From assembly GCA_947627375.1 (NCBI GenBank), contig CANQVR010000003.1, positions 1 through 40,802 on the forward strand: DNA of 40,802 nucleotides, in the 5' to 3' direction. Positions within the stretch are counted from its first letter, which is position 1. The number at the start of each line of letters is the position of its first letter. Made by a program: the position numbers and the translations under genes. Source of the stretch: an uncultured Bacilli bacterium (GTDB taxonomy: Bacteria > Bacillota_I > Bacilli_A > RF39 > UBA660). Under the pieces are notes generated by a model that worked only from the letters and a program-made list of their open reading frames with translations, did no database searches and was not told the DNA's origin. Positions 1-40,802 of the stretch are shown here, piece by piece.

Positions 1-163
1 ACATAATATATATTATACTATAATTAGACTTATTTCCGTTAATTTATTTAAAACGAACTTCCAAATAAAAATTCGGATAAATATACTTTTTTCGTTTAAA
101 ACCATTTTCAATTATTCTATTTTTTGATACAATATTATAAGTAGAAAAAGAAAGGTGATAAAT

Positions 164-25650: not shown

Positions 25651-25700
25651 TGCTTGTTTATATTTCTATGACAAATAATTTGTCATGGCGGAAGGAGTGA
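25651..25700 (+). ncRNA. Putative L31 leader hairpin (L31-Firmicutes-like)
   Basis: CTATGACAAA-TAA-TTTGTCATGG hairpin followed by CGGAAGGAG, between promoter and rpmE start. Confidence 0.55.
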
Positions 25701-37339: not shown

Positions 37340-38986
37340 ATGAAAAAGAATTCATTTTTAGAAGGAAGTTTTATTGCAACAGCATCTATTATTTTTGTAA
37401 AAATTCTTGGAATGCTTTATGTTATTCCTTTTTATGCAATAGTCGGTGTTAAGGGAGCAAGTTTATATGCTTATGCTTATACAATTTATAATATATTTTT
37501 AGATATAGCATCAGCAGGGTTGCCAGTTGCAATAAGTAAACTTATAAATGAGTATAATACATTAGGAAAAAAAGAAGCTAAGGTTCGTACCTATAAGATT
37601 GGAATTATTATAGTGGGAATTCTTTCTTTAATATCTTTTCTAATTGTCTTCTTTTTTGCAAAATATATTGCGATTGCGATACTTGGTGATTTATCAGGTG
37701 GAAATACAATAAAAGATGTAACTTTAGTTATACGTTCAATTTCATTTGCTATATTAGTAATTCCATACCTTGCTATTTCTAAAGGATATTTACAAGGACA
37801 TCATTTTATTGGACCTCCTTCAGTTAGTCAAGTTTTAGAACAAATTGTAAGAATTTTAGTTTTACTTGGTGGTTCATTTATTATTATAAAACTATTAGGT
37901 TTTGATGTATCTATTGGTGTTGCAGTTTCTTTACTTGGAGCGTTTATTGGTGGAATAGTTGCTTACTTATATATTCGTGGTAAAATAAGTAAAAATAAAG
38001 ATCAATTAGATTTAGATGAAGATTTACCAAGAGATAATGTAGAAAGTAAAGAAATTATAAAAAAAATAATTGTTTATTCATTACCTTTAATAATAATGGA
38101 TACAGCAATAAGTATTTATCATTTTATAGATATGGTTTTAATTATTAGAACACTTGATTATTTAAAATTTACAGCTCATGATGTTGAAATGATTACTAGT
38201 TCAATAGTAACTTATGCTCCAAAAATTAATATGATTATAGCCAGTATGGCTACTGGTATGTCAGTTAGTTTAATTCCAACAATAGTATCTAGTTATGTTA
38301 AAAAAGATTGGAAAGATGTAAATGATAAACTTAATAAAGCATTACAAATAATACTTATTATTTCTATTCCAATGGCAGTTGGTATTTCCTTACTTGCAAA
38401 ACCAATATGGGCACTTTTCTATCAACCAAATAATTATGGAACTTTGATTTTAGCGCTTTCTATATTTGTAGCAATACTTACTAATGTTTTTGTTATTACT
38501 AATTCAGTATTACAAGGACTTAATAAATTTAGAGTATTATATATATGTATATTTACAGGATTTATTACTAATGGTTTATTAGATGTTCCTTTGATGCTTT
38601 TATTTAATAAGTTAGGACTTCCTGTTTATTATGGAGCGATTGTTGCGACTATAATAGGATATAGTTTGACTATATTTATGGTCTTAACTACATTACATCA
38701 AAAAGAAAAACTTACTTATCGAAAAACATTTAAAGTTTTAGGAAAAACAATAGTACCACTTATTTTCATGATTGGAGTTGTATTGATACTTAAGTTAATT
38801 ATTCCATTAAATATAGCAAGTAAAATAAGTTGTATTGTATATATTGCTATTATTTCAATAGTGGGAGCAGTAGTATTCTTATATACTTCTTATAAGATGA
38901 ATATTTTACAAGAGATATTTGGATTTAAGTTTTTAAATAATTTTGTGCAAAAGATGACTTTTGGAAAATTAAAATTAAAAAAATAA
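37340..38986 (+). CDS. MOP-family flippase (YtgP/MurJ-like)
   Basis: KILGMLYVIPF, Y.YAY..Y, GLPVAISK, SQVLEQIVR, LQG; about 14 TM segments. Confidence 0.9.
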   Translation: MKKNSFLEGSFIATASIIFVKILGMLYVIPFYAIVGVKGASLYAYAYTIYNIFLDIASAGLPVAISKLINEYNTLGKKEAKVRTYKIGIIIVGILSLISFLIVFFFAKYIAIAILGDLSGGNTIKDVTLVIRSISFAILVIPYLAISKGYLQGHHFIGPPSVSQVLEQIVRILVLLGGSFIIIKLLGFDVSIGVAVSLLGAFIGGIVAYLYIRGKISKNKDQLDLDEDLPRDNVESKEIIKKIIVYSLPLIIMDTAISIYHFIDMVLIIRTLDYLKFTAHDVEMITSSIVTYAPKINMIIASMATGMSVSLIPTIVSSYVKKDWKDVNDKLNKALQIILIISIPMAVGISLLAKPIWALFYQPNNYGTLILALSIFVAILTNVFVITNSVLQGLNKFRVLYICIFTGFITNGLLDVPLMLLFNKLGLPVYYGAIVATIIGYSLTIFMVLTTLHQKEKLTYRKTFKVLGKTIVPLIFMIGVVLILKLIIPLNIASKISCIVYIAIISIVGAVVFLYTSYKMNILQEIFGFKFLNNFVQKMTFGKLKLKK

Positions 38987-39030
38987 TTTTAAGTGTTTGT
39001 GTTATAATATAGGTAGTTGGAGATGTTATT

Positions 39031-40413
39031 ATGTCAGATAAAGAATTATATTTAAATTATGAAAAATATTTAGATAAAGAAGTTGTATTAGAAGGATGGA
39101 TAAGAAATCATAGAAAACAAAAAGAATTTGGATTTATTTCGTTTTCTGATGGAACTTATTTTCCACAGATTCAAATTGTTTATGATAATAAGTTAGATAA
39201 TTTTTCTACTATTACAAAATTTCATATAGGTAGTTCAATAAGAGTAAGAGGAATTGTGGTTAAATCACCTAAGGAAAATCAAGCTTTTGAGATACATGCT
39301 TTAGAAATAGTTTTATTAGGAGATTGTCCTGAAGATTATCCGATTCAACCTAAAAGACATTCTCGTGAATTTCTAAGAGAACAAGCTTATCTTAGACCTA
39401 GAACTAATTTGTTTCAAGCAGTTTTTAAAGTAAGAAGTAAAGCAGCTTTTGCAATTCATGAATATTTTCAAAATAAAGATTTTGTTTATCTTCATGCTCC
39501 TTTGATTACTGCGAGTGATTGTGAAGGAGCAGGAGAGATGTTTCATGTTACTAGTTTTGATCTAGAAAATATTCCAAAAGATGAAAATGGTAATGTTGAT
39601 TATAGTAAAGATTTCTTTGGTAAAATGGCTTCTCTAACTGTATCTGGACAACTTCAAGCAGAAACTTTTGCTTTAGCTTATAAAAATGTTTATACTTTTG
39701 GACCTACATTTAGAGCAGAGAACTCTAATACTAAAACACATGCTTCTGAATTTTGGATGATCGAGCCTGAAATGGCATTTTGTGATTTAGAAAAAGATAT
39801 GGATGTTATGGAAGATATGTTAAAGTATATAGTTAATTATGTACTTAAAAATTGTAAAGAAGAACTTAAATTCTTAAATAATTTTGTAGAAAAAGGTTTA
39901 ATAGAGAAACTTGAAAAATTAGTTAATTCTAAAGCAGTGAGAATTACTCATCATGAAGCGATAGAAATTTTAAAAAATTCTGGAAAAGACTTCGAATTCA
40001 CGCCTGAGTTTTCTGAAGATTTAGCCCGTGAACATGAAAAGTATTTAACTGAAGAAAAATATCATTGTCCAGTATTTGTTTATGATTGGCCTAAAGATAT
40101 TAAAGCATTTTATATGAGACTTAATGATGATTTAGAAACAGTTGGAGCAGTAGATTTACTTGTACCAGGTTCAGGTGAATTAATGGGAGGTTCACAAAGA
40201 GAAGAAAGATATGATGTTTTGATGCATCGTATGGAAGAAATGAATGTTTCACGTGATGAACTTTCTTGGTATTTAAAACTTAGAGAATATGGTGGATGTA
40301 TTCATTCAGGATTTGGTATGGGATTTGAAAGATTAATTATGTATTTAACTGGAGTTGAAAATATAAGAGATGTTATACCATATCCAAGAACTCCAAAGTC
40401 TTGTGATTTTTAA
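39031..40413 (+). CDS. asnS: Asparagine--tRNA ligase
   Basis: DCEGAGE, LTVSGQL, GPTFRAENSNT..H.SEFWMIEPE, GGSQREER, GFGMGFER. Confidence 0.97.
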   Translation: MSDKELYLNYEKYLDKEVVLEGWIRNHRKQKEFGFISFSDGTYFPQIQIVYDNKLDNFSTITKFHIGSSIRVRGIVVKSPKENQAFEIHALEIVLLGDCPEDYPIQPKRHSREFLREQAYLRPRTNLFQAVFKVRSKAAFAIHEYFQNKDFVYLHAPLITASDCEGAGEMFHVTSFDLENIPKDENGNVDYSKDFFGKMASLTVSGQLQAETFALAYKNVYTFGPTFRAENSNTKTHASEFWMIEPEMAFCDLEKDMDVMEDMLKYIVNYVLKNCKEELKFLNNFVEKGLIEKLEKLVNSKAVRITHHEAIEILKNSGKDFEFTPEFSEDLAREHEKYLTEEKYHCPVFVYDWPKDIKAFYMRLNDDLETVGAVDLLVPGSGELMGGSQREERYDVLMHRMEEMNVSRDELSWYLKLREYGGCIHSGFGMGFERLIMYLTGVENIRDVIPYPRTPKSCDF

Positions 40414-40423
40414 AATAATTATA

Positions 40424-40452
40424 TTGAAAAAAATATAAATTAATGATATGAT
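40424..40452 (+). promoter_or_regulatory. Sigma-A promoter driving a short non-coding unit
   Basis: TTGAAA, 17 nt, TG-n-TATGAT. Confidence 0.7.
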
Positions 40453-40458
40453 TAATTT

Positions 40459-40553
40459 ATCAAGGAAACTTGAATAATATATTGTAAGAAGACTCAAAGT
40501 CAGGTTGAGCACTTACCATTTAGTATGCACTCAAGATGATTGAGTGCTCTTTT
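40459..40553 (+). ncRNA. Putative small RNA resembling a type III TA antitoxin (ToxI-like), orphan
   Basis: GAAA-tetraloop hairpin, pseudoknot-capable core with partial ~36-nt repeat, terminator GCACTCAA-GATGA-TTGAGTGC-TCTTTT; no ORF. Confidence 0.55.
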
Positions 40554-40595
40554 ATTAATAATTTAATTAAATACTATCAATAAAAGATTATTAGT

Positions 40596-40640
40596 AAAAA
40601 AGATAGCTATTATTTTTTGTTTAATAATAACTATCTTTTT
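40596..40640. terminator. Bidirectional terminator-like inverted repeat
   Basis: AAAAAGATAG.TATTATT...AATAATA.CTATCTTTTT. Confidence 0.65.
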
Positions 40641-40802
40641 ATATTATTTTAATTTAACAATTTGATTTGTATTGTCTTTTCGATCTTTTAATACTTCTTT
40701 CCAATTAATTGGGACAACATCTTTTAAGAGAGTGTAAAAAACTTTGTGTAAAGTTACCATCTATGGTAATAAAGATATTAGAGACTAGAGAATCAGTCTC
40801 TT

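What the first reader, a model, noticed from the sequence alone, without database searches (positions are those of the whole stretch)
40424..40553. Stand-alone ToxI-like small RNA with no toxin gene next to it
Seen: a complete ~95-nt transcription unit with no ORF. It has a promoter (TTGAAA-17-TGnTATGAT), a TCAAG-GAAA-CTTGA hairpin, a GC-enriched core and an 8-bp terminator with a T-tract. ACTCAA recurs after 37 nt and TTGAG after 35 nt. CTC/GAG plus GGT/ACC can form an H-type pseudoknot, and GAGCACT (40507-40513) can alternatively pair with the terminator's 3' arm AGTGCTC (40543-40549). Knowledge: type III TA loci are promoter, ~36-nt pseudoknot repeats, terminator, toxin; the core TCAGGT..TACC.TT.AGT..GCA resembles ToxI as I recall it. 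Here only AT-rich DNA and a second terminator follow. Inference: an orphan antitoxin that could neutralise incoming or distant ToxN/AbiQ RNases in trans, a relic after toxin loss, or a new sRNA class.
Basis: partly seen in the sequence, partly recalled or inferred. Interest (0 to 1): 0.75.

Follow-up and report, generated by a model that had tools for sequence, protein, structure and literature searches.

The report
Orphan type I antitoxin-like small RNA
This short RNA gene is real, but it is not ToxI-like: it belongs to a large, apparently undescribed family of small RNAs that normally sit tail-to-tail with a tiny hydrophobic "toxin" peptide gene, and here that peptide gene has decayed.

Summary
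The promoter, 5' hairpin, second hairpin and terminator at 40424-40556 are all present. Nothing links the element to ToxI. Rfam gives no match, there is no tandem repeat, and the proposed pseudoknot has no support. The genome's real ToxN gene, on contig C52, has its own unrelated array of 3.3 x 36-nt repeats.

The element is one of 6 copies in this genome of a small-RNA family. The family was found in 52 of 101 sampled genera of the same bacterial family, and in 0 of 137 genomes from 25 other families of the class. Its two hairpins covary.

In 36 of 50 copies, and in 57 of 77 independently chosen copies (mirrored control 0 of 81), the RNA converges on a 21-30 aa hydrophobic ORF with a Shine-Dalgarno site, and it overlaps that ORF's 3' end. 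This is the type I toxin-antitoxin layout.

In the window the opposite strand holds only a relic: ATG has become ATT, the SD is lost, 6 nt are deleted and the 5'UTR is gone. Verdict: an orphan type I antitoxin-like RNA from a new family of a known kind. Expression and toxicity are untested.

The parts
40424..40452 (+). Sigma-70-type promoter of the small RNA: -35 TTGAAA, 17-nt spacer, extended -10 TGaTATGAT
   Evidence: 10 of 12, TG present. A TTGnnn-16..18-TAnnnT site ends at the same position relative to the RNA in 48 of 51 family copies, against 4 of 51 control windows.
40460..40473 (+). 5' hairpin TCAAG-GAAA-CTTGA; the predicted transcript starts about 40458-40460
   Evidence: In the family the inner four pairs are kept in 39-50 of 50 distinct sequences (the outermost pair in 11), and 76% of cells pair overall, against 5-58% for slid controls. 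Support is modest.
40474..40491 (+). Linker. In intact units this is the A-rich complement (ATAAAATAAAAAAGGAAG) of the T-tract that ends the toxin mRNA. Here it is eroded to ATAATATATTGTAAGAAG.
   Evidence: Alignment A2: the window row is the only one of 17 that departs from the A-run.
40493..40509 (+). Hairpin H1: CTCAA / TTGAG with loop AGTCAGG. Read on the minus strand in intact units, it is the terminator hairpin of the toxin mRNA.
   Evidence: RNAalifold consensus. 99.2% of cells pair, and 3 of 5 pairs show changes on both sides.
40510..40526 (+). Core CACTTACCATTTAGTAT between the two hairpins. The CTT(A/G)CC motif is conserved.
40527..40556 (+). Intrinsic terminator GCACTCAA-GATGA-TTGAGTGC plus TCTTTTATT. 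It probably also ends asnS read-through, because asnS (stop 40411-40413) has no terminator of its own.
   Evidence: 99.4% of cells pair, and 7 of 7 pairs show changes on both sides. G001 asnS has its own terminator instead.
40563..40625 (-). Relic of the convergent toxin ORF: ATT-KQKIIAIFFTNNLLLIVFN-stop. It aligns with MRKNEILIFFLLIIIVLLIVFK of same-genus genomes. ATG is now ATT, SD AAAGGGG is now AAAAGAT, 6 nt are deleted in the hydrophobic core, and the polar residues TNN are inserted there.
   Evidence: No start codon or SD.
40597..40640 (.). One arm is the 5' part of the toxin relic.
   Evidence: alignment of the palindrome. Its function was not tested.
40641..40700 (-). The position where the toxin promoter and 5'UTR lie in intact units. 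No recognisable copy of the 5'UTR element (TTGAGCGCTTGCCC-like) remains.
   Evidence: alignment A4.

Best explanation
The element at about 40458-40556 (+) is a promoter-to-terminator small-RNA gene. It belongs to a multi-copy family confined, among the genomes sampled, to one family of small-genome, AT-rich, uncultured gut Bacilli.

In intact units the RNA is transcribed towards a 21-30 aa, strongly hydrophobic peptide gene with a strong Shine-Dalgarno site (consensus M-x-K-K-D-F/L-L-I followed by a membrane-spanning stretch). The two transcripts overlap by roughly 75-80 nt at their 3' ends. The RNA's terminator sits at the peptide gene's stop codon. The RNA's first hairpin plus A-rich linker, read on the other strand, form the terminator of the peptide mRNA. 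This is the architecture of Gram-positive type I toxin-antitoxin systems.

Inferred mechanism: the small RNA pairs perfectly with the 3' end of the toxin mRNA, and the duplex is cut (by RNase III in the characterised Bacillus systems), which keeps the toxin silent. The toxin mRNA is additionally predicted to be closed by a conserved helix between its 5'UTR and its own 3' end. The 5'UTR is a same-sense copy of part of the small RNA, so the antitoxin and the mRNA's 5' end would compete for the same 3' sequence.

In the window the toxin half has decayed: the start codon, SD, hydrophobic core, 5'UTR and terminator T-tract are all damaged. The small RNA keeps its promoter, hairpins and terminator. 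It is therefore an orphan antitoxin-like RNA. It may still act in trans on the paralogous toxin mRNA on contig C10, and its terminator probably also ends asnS transcription.

Shown: homology, covariation, conserved promoter, the convergent ORFs and their coding-type constraint, decay of the window's ORF, and predicted pairings. Inferred: transcription, toxicity, antitoxin action, RNase III involvement and trans action.
For: The anatomy is confirmed.

Family and distribution:
- There are 6 copies in this genome: C10, C7, C3 (the window), C63, C48 and C1.
- 52 of 101 genomes, one per genus of family f1, have a match at E<=0.001, with up to 13 per genome.
- In a class-wide sample 5 of 151 genomes match, all in f1; 0 of 137 genomes from 25 other families match.

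Structure and transcription signals:
- On 50 distinct sequences 99.3% of cells pair, 10 of 12 pairs change on both sides, 0 of 500 shuffles reach this, and slid controls pair in 25-43% of cells. This alignment was fitted to the model.
- A promoter lies at a fixed distance in 48 of 51 copies, against 4 of 51 control windows.

Convergent ORF:
- An ORF with SD, start codon and a hydrophobic 18-45 aa product, whose stop lies at the RNA's 3' end, is present in 36 of 50 covariance-model hits with flank.
- It is present in 57 of 77 loci picked only by a 24-nt motif of the RNA's 5' end. A mirrored upstream control gives 0 of 81.
- Differences between ORFs fall 311:120:441 on codon positions 1:2:3, and 375 of 687 differing codons are synonymous (73 non-independent pairs).

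Toxin mRNA folding:
- Complementarity between the 5'UTR and the mRNA's own 3' end is median -34.6 kcal/mol, against -13.5 for shuffles, with z<-3 in 35 of 36 units.
- Cognate pairs have a median of -34.6 and non-cognate pairs -24.1.
- A closing helix appears in 7 of 8 minimum-energy folds.

Window copy:
- Homology extends through the toxin region, but ATG is now ATT, the SD is lost, 6 nt are deleted and the 5'UTR element is lost.
- The linker is eroded in the window row only, 1 of 17.
- The window RNA against the C10 toxin mRNA 3' region gives -54.9 kcal/mol, z -5.8, with 0 of 200 shuffles as low.

Literature: the layout matches the published description of Gram-positive type I families, with the antisense RNA on the 3' side and partly overlapping, SD/anti-SD pairing and 5'-3' long-distance interactions (PMC8594479, passages read).
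Against: There is no expression evidence. The only RNA run that shared any words covers just the conserved asnS 3' end of related organisms and nothing at 40412-40802. These are contigs, so this says little either way.

The peptides match no Pfam or NCBIfam type I toxin family, and neither the window RNA nor three loci (L007, L002, L026) holding five intact units match any Rfam antitoxin family. The 'type I' label therefore rests on architecture only.

AT-rich DNA readily yields I/L/K/F-rich frames, although the SD, start and position criteria and the 0 of 81 control argue against chance.

Folding does not show that RNA binding changes SD accessibility. The mean unpaired probability is 0.19 free and 0.23 bound; the SD is less accessible in 6 and more accessible in 14 of 36 units.

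14 of 50 and 20 of 77 copies lack an ORF that passes my criteria, and some of these are artefacts of the criteria. The window ends at 40802, inside a repeat, so the far side of the locus is unseen.
Confidence: 0.77

Rival explanations
1. Orphan type III (ToxI-like) antitoxin: a pseudoknotted RNA that binds and neutralises ToxN/AbiQ-type RNases in trans.
For: The genome does encode a ToxN-family protein (G000:C52:4493-4957, 147.7 bits, cut-off 25). The window RNA has two similar half-sites 35-37 nt apart.
Against: ToxN has its own promoter, 3.3 x 36-nt repeats (98% matches) and terminator directly upstream. That repeat unit shows no meaningful similarity to the window RNA (best local score 8, gapped). 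There is no tandem repeat in 40380-40700, and the self-offset identity is at most 18 of 40. There is no Rfam ToxI or other hit even at E<=10. The pseudoknot pairs are not conserved (54.6% paired; 129 of 500 shuffles do as well). Homologues were not seen to precede a toxN-like gene; instead 36 of 50 and 57 of 77 converge on a tiny hydrophobic ORF.
Confidence: 0.02
2. The hairpins are only the 3'UTR and terminator of asnS, and the promoter-like site is chance in AT-rich DNA.
For: asnS stops at 40413 with no terminator before 40527, so read-through probably ends at this terminator. Over the whole 1.9-kb region promoter-like sites are no more frequent than in shuffles (9 found, 11.8 expected).
Against: Fifty other copies of the same RNA lie at unrelated loci, with covarying stems and a promoter at a fixed distance in 48 of 51. 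asnS of the same-genus genome inspected (G001) has its own terminator and no such element. Homology continues past the terminator into the toxin relic.
Confidence: 0.04
3. The pair is not a toxin-antitoxin system. The small ORF encodes a harmless small membrane protein, or a peptide with another role, and the convergent RNA merely tunes it or is a by-product of bidirectional termination. On this reading the window copy is a dead remnant with no function.
For: There are no toxicity data and no match to known toxin families. Many small membrane proteins are not toxic. 14 of 50 copies have lost the ORF without obvious consequence.
Against: Several features are those listed for type I toxin loci (PMC8594479; PMC2887945, passages). 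These are: multi-copy and tandem arrays (three units in a row in G001 and G002; up to 13 copies in about 1.2 Mb); frequent pseudogenisation; an SD buried in local helices (mean unpaired probability 0.19); a 5'-3' lock; and 3'-overlapping antisense RNAs with their own promoters.
Confidence: 0.15

Closest known systems
Bacillus subtilis type I systems with 3'-overlapping antitoxins (bsrG/SR4, txpA/RatA, bsrE/SR5, yonT/SR6)
   Same: The toxin and RNA genes converge, and the RNA overlaps the 3' end of the toxin mRNA including the end of the ORF. The toxin is small and hydrophobic. The SD lies in a helix. A perfect duplex is available for RNase III. (PMC8594479 passages; PMC3834814 abstract; PMC3531473 and PMC5848175 search listings.)
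   Different: The peptides are shorter (21-30 aa, against 38 aa for BsrG and 58-59 aa for TxpA/YonT; those lengths are recalled, except YonT at 58 aa, which is in the PMC5848175 listing). There is no sequence or Rfam/Pfam match. The 5'UTR is a same-sense copy of the antitoxin, giving a predicted 5'-3' lock. An SR4-like tightening of the SD helix on binding was not reproduced in silico.
hok/Sok and AapA1/IsoA1 (toxin mRNAs locked by a 5'-3' long-distance interaction)
   Same: The predicted full-length toxin mRNA is closed by pairing of its two ends, with the SD sequestered. This is a general type I theme (PMC8594479).
   Different: In those Gram-negative families the antisense RNA lies within or at the 5' part of the mRNA. 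Here it covers the 3' partner of the lock itself, so it would compete with the mRNA's 5' end. Details of hok fbi/tac are recalled, not read here.
Fst / RNA I-RNA II (par of pAD1) family
   Same: A Gram-positive system with convergent transcripts that share terminator sequence, repeated sequence elements in both RNAs, and a roughly 30-aa hydrophobic toxin (layout from PMC8594479; other details recalled).
   Different: No Pfam family (the scan covers all of Pfam-A) matched above noise. Fst-type interaction occurs outside the overlap, at the 5' repeats. Here the shared element is same-sense, not complementary, between the two RNAs.
ToxI/ToxN type III toxin-antitoxin
   Same: A small structured RNA with its own promoter and terminator that serves as antitoxin. 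The same genome holds one such locus.
   Different: ToxI is an array of 36-nt direct repeats followed by a protein RNase gene on the same strand. The window RNA has no repeats, no downstream toxin and no similarity.

Membership tests
ToxI / type III antitoxin RNA | Array of near-identical ~36-nt direct repeats | tested here: not met
   TRF finds none in 40380-40700. Best self-offset identity is 18 of 40. Positive control: 3.3 x 36 nt at 98% identity upstream of toxN on C52.
ToxI / type III antitoxin RNA | Followed on the same strand by a ToxN/AbiQ/CptN-type toxin gene (or homologues so placed) | tested here: not met
   No ORF follows. The only ToxN gene over the family's cut-off lies on C52 with its own array. 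36 of 50 and 57 of 77 homologues face a 21-30 aa ORF instead.
ToxI / type III antitoxin RNA | Match to the curated RNA model, or to the resident ToxN-linked repeat | tested here: not met
   No Rfam hit at gathering score or at E<=10. No similarity to the C52 unit.
ToxI / type III antitoxin RNA | Conserved pseudoknot | tested here: not met
   The proposed GG/CC pairs are paired in 54.6% of cells, and 129 of 500 shuffles do as well. The covariation supports two plain hairpins.
Type I toxin-antitoxin system (the class) | Small hydrophobic peptide gene with a translation signal | tested here: met
   Met for the family: 36 of 50 and 57 of 77 copies, control 0 of 81; GRAVY about 1.5-2.5; codon-position bias 311:120:441. 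For the window copy itself it is not met, because only a relic remains.
Type I toxin-antitoxin system (the class) | Antisense RNA with its own promoter and terminator, complementary to the toxin mRNA | tested here: met
   Promoter in 48 of 51 copies. The terminator covaries. Convergent overlap with the ORF's 3' end. Transcription itself is not shown.
Type I toxin-antitoxin system (the class) | Toxin mRNA held inactive by SD sequestration and/or a 5'-3' interaction | tested here: met
   By prediction only: SD unpaired probability 0.19 on average; 5'-3' helix with z<-3 in 35 of 36 units; closing helix in 7 of 8 minimum-energy folds.
Type I toxin-antitoxin system (the class) | Peptide toxic on overexpression; RNA prevents toxin synthesis | not testable with these tools
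   This needs expression assays. No RNA data cover the locus.
Known type I families (Fst/RNAII, TxpA/RatA, BsrE-G-H, YonT, SprA1, SprG, and the Rfam antitoxin families) | Sequence or profile match of the peptide or the RNA | tested here: not met
   Pfam and NCBIfam give only noise (E>=0.38, far below cut-offs) for 5 peptides. Rfam gives nothing for the window or for three loci holding five intact units, apart from tRNAs.

The most novel reading that the evidence does not exclude
The family is a previously undescribed kind of type I toxin-antitoxin module in which the antitoxin RNA mimics the toxin mRNA's own 5' end. Both carry the same element, and both pair with the mRNA's 3' end. The antitoxin would then work by competing with, and opening, a 5'-3' lock, exposing the mRNA to decay.

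Orphan copies such as the one in the window would be kept as trans-acting 'immunity' RNAs. They would buffer paralogous toxins (here the C10 toxin, predicted duplex -54.9 kcal/mol) or incoming copies, in genomes of about 1 Mb that carry up to 13 such modules.
Probability: 0.22. Interest if true: 0.72.

Novelty: new member of a known kind. Interest (0 to 1): 0.55.

Why it matters

This work gives a covariance model, a peptide motif and about 90 paired loci for a family that is abundant in an uncultured, small-genome gut lineage: 52 of 101 genera, with up to 13 copies per roughly 1.2-Mb genome. It also shows a conserved architecture that can be tested directly, in which the antitoxin shares sequence with the toxin's 5'UTR.

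For annotation, about a quarter of the copies, including the window's, are orphan antitoxin-like RNAs beside toxin relics. That makes the family a natural series for asking whether such RNAs persist by selection (cross-protection) or only by slow decay.

Tried and rejected
1. Rfam. The whole window at gathering score, 40350-40802 at E<=10, and three loci with intact units at E<=1 gave no relevant family.
2. Pfam and NCBIfam on five peptides gave noise only.
4. Expression. Of the 20 runs listed, the 4 that hold half or more of the stretch's words are DNA runs, 3 of them marked as a possible source of this DNA. The single RNA run (0.04 of words) covers only 40148-40435, with diverged asnS contigs of relatives, and gives no cover of the RNA. 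This is not evidence either way.
5. An SR4-like model, in which antitoxin binding tightens SD sequestration, was tested by folding with the 3' region blocked. The result was inconsistent: less accessible in 6, more accessible in 14, unchanged in 16 of 36. I dropped it as the preferred mechanism.
6. The alternative pairing GAGCACT/AGTGCTC is paired in 86% of cells. That is barely above shuffles (84.9%), though 8 cells change on both sides against 4.2 expected. The potential is conserved but the covariation is not convincing.
7. Synteny. asnS in G001 is followed by its own terminator and a 186-aa gene, with no RNA, so there is no orthologous intact unit to compare at this locus. G002 and G013 loci were fetched but not inspected.
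8. Earlier notes of this scan gave nothing by place or by sequence. A third look-up failed on a word limit.
9. Literature. Four searches found no description of this family or of type I systems in metagenome-assembled Bacilli. Supplementary tables of PMC2887945 and PMC8594479, which list thousands of candidate ORFs, were not opened and could contain related peptides.

Full report
**1. The observation**

- Promoter: -35 TTGAAA at 40424-40429, a 17-nt spacer, and -10 TATGAT at 40447-40452 preceded by TG. It scores 10 of 12 and is the best promoter-like site in 38900-40802.
- 5' hairpin: TCAAG-GAAA-CTTGA at 40460-40473.
- Second hairpin: CTCAA/TTGAG at 40493-40509.
- Terminator: an 8-bp stem GCACTCAA/TTGAGTGC with a T-run at 40527-40556. 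Two terminator-like sites were found in the region, against 0.2 expected.

The 104-nt RNA folds better than its shuffles (-23.6 against -16.3 kcal/mol, z -2.7). No ATG/GTG/TTG ORF of substance lies in or after it. asnS ends at 40413 and has no terminator of its own before 40527.

The window is a whole contig (C3) of a 1.24-Mb, 27% G+C, 91-contig assembly that is 85% complete.

**2. It is not ToxI-like**

Rfam gives no match for the window at gathering score, and only noise at E<=10 for 40350-40802. Tandem Repeats Finder sees no repeat in 40380-40700. The 35-37-nt recurrence of ACTCAA and TTGAG reflects two hairpins with similar arms, and the best self-offset identity is 18 of 40. The proposed pseudoknot pairs are paired in 54.6% of cells across the family, which is no better than shuffled or slid controls.

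The genome does have a ToxN-family gene (C52:4493-4957, 147.7 bits against a cut-off of 25). That gene is preceded by its own promoter, 3.3 copies of an unrelated 36-nt repeat at 98% identity, and a terminator. This is a built-in positive control for what a type III locus looks like in this organism. The window RNA shares nothing with it.

**3. What it is: a member of a large small-RNA family**

A search of the own genome found a 70%-identical paralogue on C10. BLAST in relatives then found many more, some in tandem. A covariance model built from 17 copies finds the following.
- 6 copies in this genome: C10, C7, C3, C63, C48 and C1.
- Matches at E<=0.001 in 52 of 101 genomes, one per genus of the same bacterial family (43 of 80 among high-quality genomes), with up to 13 per genome.
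- In a class-wide sample, matches in 5 of 151 genomes, all in that family, and in none of 137 genomes from 25 other families.

The record titles read uncultured Bacilli, Tenericutes, Mollicutes, Erysipelotrichaceae or Candidatus Ventrenecus, with a few other labels.

On 50 distinct sequences the two hairpins pair in 99.3% of cells. 10 of 12 pairs show changes on both sides, no shuffle out of 500 reaches this, and slid controls pair in 25-43% of cells. That alignment was fitted to the model, which favours it. RNAalifold on the independent MAFFT alignment gave the same two helices, with 9 of 12 pairs compensated.

A TTGnnn-16..18-TAnnnT site ends at the same position relative to the RNA in 48 of 51 copies, against 4 of 51 control windows. 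This argues for an independent transcription unit.

**4. The partner gene**

In paralogues and relatives the RNA is transcribed towards a tiny ORF on the other strand.
- C10: AAAGGAGG, 8 nt, ATG, then MKKKDLLISFLILIIILLIVSLMILSIKK.
- C7: MKKAKKYLCTIIILLIIVILIILIK.
- Same-genus genomes: MRKNEILIFFLLIIIVLLIVFK and MSKKDLLVVLLIVVIILLIIYN, in three tandem units.

The ORF's stop lies at the RNA's 3' end. I applied fixed criteria: an SD-like motif, a start codon, 18-45 aa, GRAVY above 1.4, and the stop near the RNA's end.
- 36 of 50 covariance-model hits with flank have such an ORF.
- 57 of 77 loci chosen only by the RNA's 5' motif have one.
- The same test on the mirrored upstream flank passes 0 of 81.
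- Some failures are artefacts of the criteria. Others are real decay, such as C48 with an in-frame stop and C63 with an 11-aa stub.

Differences among ORFs fall 311:120:441 on codon positions 1:2:3, and 375 of 687 differing codons are synonymous (73 pairs, not independent). This is what a coding, hydrophobicity-preserving constraint gives.

Read on the toxin strand, the RNA's first hairpin plus its A-rich linker form a hairpin followed by a T-run, which is the toxin mRNA's terminator. The two transcripts would therefore overlap by roughly 75-80 nt. This is the layout described for Gram-positive type I families (PMC8594479, passages).

Neither the peptides (Pfam and NCBIfam) nor the RNAs (Rfam) match a known family.

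**5. A conserved extra feature**

The toxin 5'UTR carries a same-sense copy of the RNA's first hairpin and core. It is therefore complementary to the toxin mRNA's own 3' end.
- Predicted duplexes between the 5'UTR (-70 to -22) and the 3' end have a median of -34.6 kcal/mol, against -13.5 for dinucleotide shuffles, with z<-3 in 35 of 36 units.
- Cognate pairs beat non-cognate ones (-34.6 against -24.1), and a divergent subfamily keeps the pairing with different letters.
- In 7 of 8 full-length folds this helix closes the molecule. The transcription starts used were guessed from -10 boxes.
- The SD is mostly paired, with a mean unpaired probability of 0.19.
- Blocking the 3' region, to mimic antitoxin binding, does not change SD accessibility consistently (6 down, 14 up, of 36). 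I therefore do not claim an SR4-type translational effect (PMC3834814 abstract).

My preferred mechanism is duplex formation at the 3' end followed by cleavage and decay, as in the Bacillus systems. The competition between the antitoxin and the mRNA's 5' end remains an untested twist.

**6. The window copy**

Homology to intact units of same-genus genomes runs past the terminator into 40563-40640. On the minus strand the frame reads YKKIVIIKQKIIAIFFTNNLLLIVFN-stop, which aligns with MRKNEILIFFLLIIIVLLIVFK. The damage is as follows.
- ATG is ATT.
- The SD AAAGGGG is AAAAGAT.
- 6 nt are missing from the hydrophobic core, and the polar residues TNN now interrupt it.
- The 5'UTR element is unrecognisable.
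- The window is also the only one of 17 aligned copies whose A-rich linker, the complement of the toxin terminator's T-run, is eroded.

The RNA's own promoter, hairpins and terminator are intact, and it scores 88.9 bits against the model. The toxin half is therefore a relic and the RNA half is not.

asnS in the same-genus genome G001 has its own terminator and no such element, so the module is an accessory insertion here. Three of the six copies in this genome lie 46-224 nt downstream of tRNA genes.

The orphan RNA is predicted to pair strongly with the antitoxin-binding 3' region of the C10 toxin mRNA (-54.9 kcal/mol, z -5.8, 0 of 200 shuffles). It does not pair with the C7 or C1 mRNAs. Trans action on a paralogue is therefore possible but unproven.

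**7. Limits**

- No transcript evidence could be obtained.
- Toxicity and antitoxin activity are inferred from architecture alone.
- Counts across relatives are not independent.
- The contig ends at 40802 inside a repeat.
- Four literature searches found no description of this family. The large supplementary ORF lists of PMC2887945 and PMC8594479 were not examined.

**8. Verdict**

The element is an orphan antitoxin-like RNA beside a decayed toxin gene, from an abundant and apparently undescribed type I toxin-antitoxin-like family: a new member of a known kind, with one architectural feature worth testing.

Noticed in passing
G000:C52:4200-4960 (locus L189 900-1660); not in the window: A complete type III toxin-antitoxin locus: promoter, 3.3 copies of a 36-nt repeat (98% matches), terminator, then a ToxN-family gene (147.7 bits). 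Rfam's models do not recognise its repeat RNA at E<=1.
   Followed up: partly
window 40728-40802: The last 75 nt of the contig are identical to the ends of contigs C8 and C62. In one DNA run they sit at 57-110x depth, against about 8x for the rest. This is the edge of a multi-copy repeat that breaks the assembly, so what follows the toxin relic is unknown.
   Followed up: partly
G000:C10 (L002 1710-1786), C7 (L026 343-429), C48 (L005 1754-1829): Three of the six copies of the module in this genome lie 46-224 nt downstream of tRNA genes (Arg-TCT, Leu-CAA, Phe-GAA) in the same orientation. C7 and C48 share a conserved stretch between the tRNA and the RNA promoter. This may be a preferred insertion context.
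   Followed up: no
G000:C1:~1000-1330 (L190): This copy has an SD and ATG opening a 12-aa ORF (MPHYIFLTLRYF) whose stop abuts the ATG of a 23-aa hydrophobic ORF (MEYLIVAVIILVVILLMIIAVKK). It is either a nonsense-split toxin or a leader-plus-toxin arrangement reminiscent of mok/hok.
   Followed up: no
L007 1144-1960 and L008 1146-1960 (same-genus genomes G001, G002); L045 977-2780; L136: Modules occur in tandem arrays of three to five units about 320-480 nt apart, with different toxin subfamilies side by side.
   Followed up: partly
window 25666-25697: The only Rfam gathering-score hit in the window is an L31-Firmicutes ribosomal protein leader (37.1 bits).
   Followed up: no
window 40597-40640: An 18-bp AT-rich inverted repeat with T-runs on both sides overlies the 5' half of the toxin relic. 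It could be a bidirectional terminator, or an inverted duplication that destroyed the toxin start.
   Followed up: no
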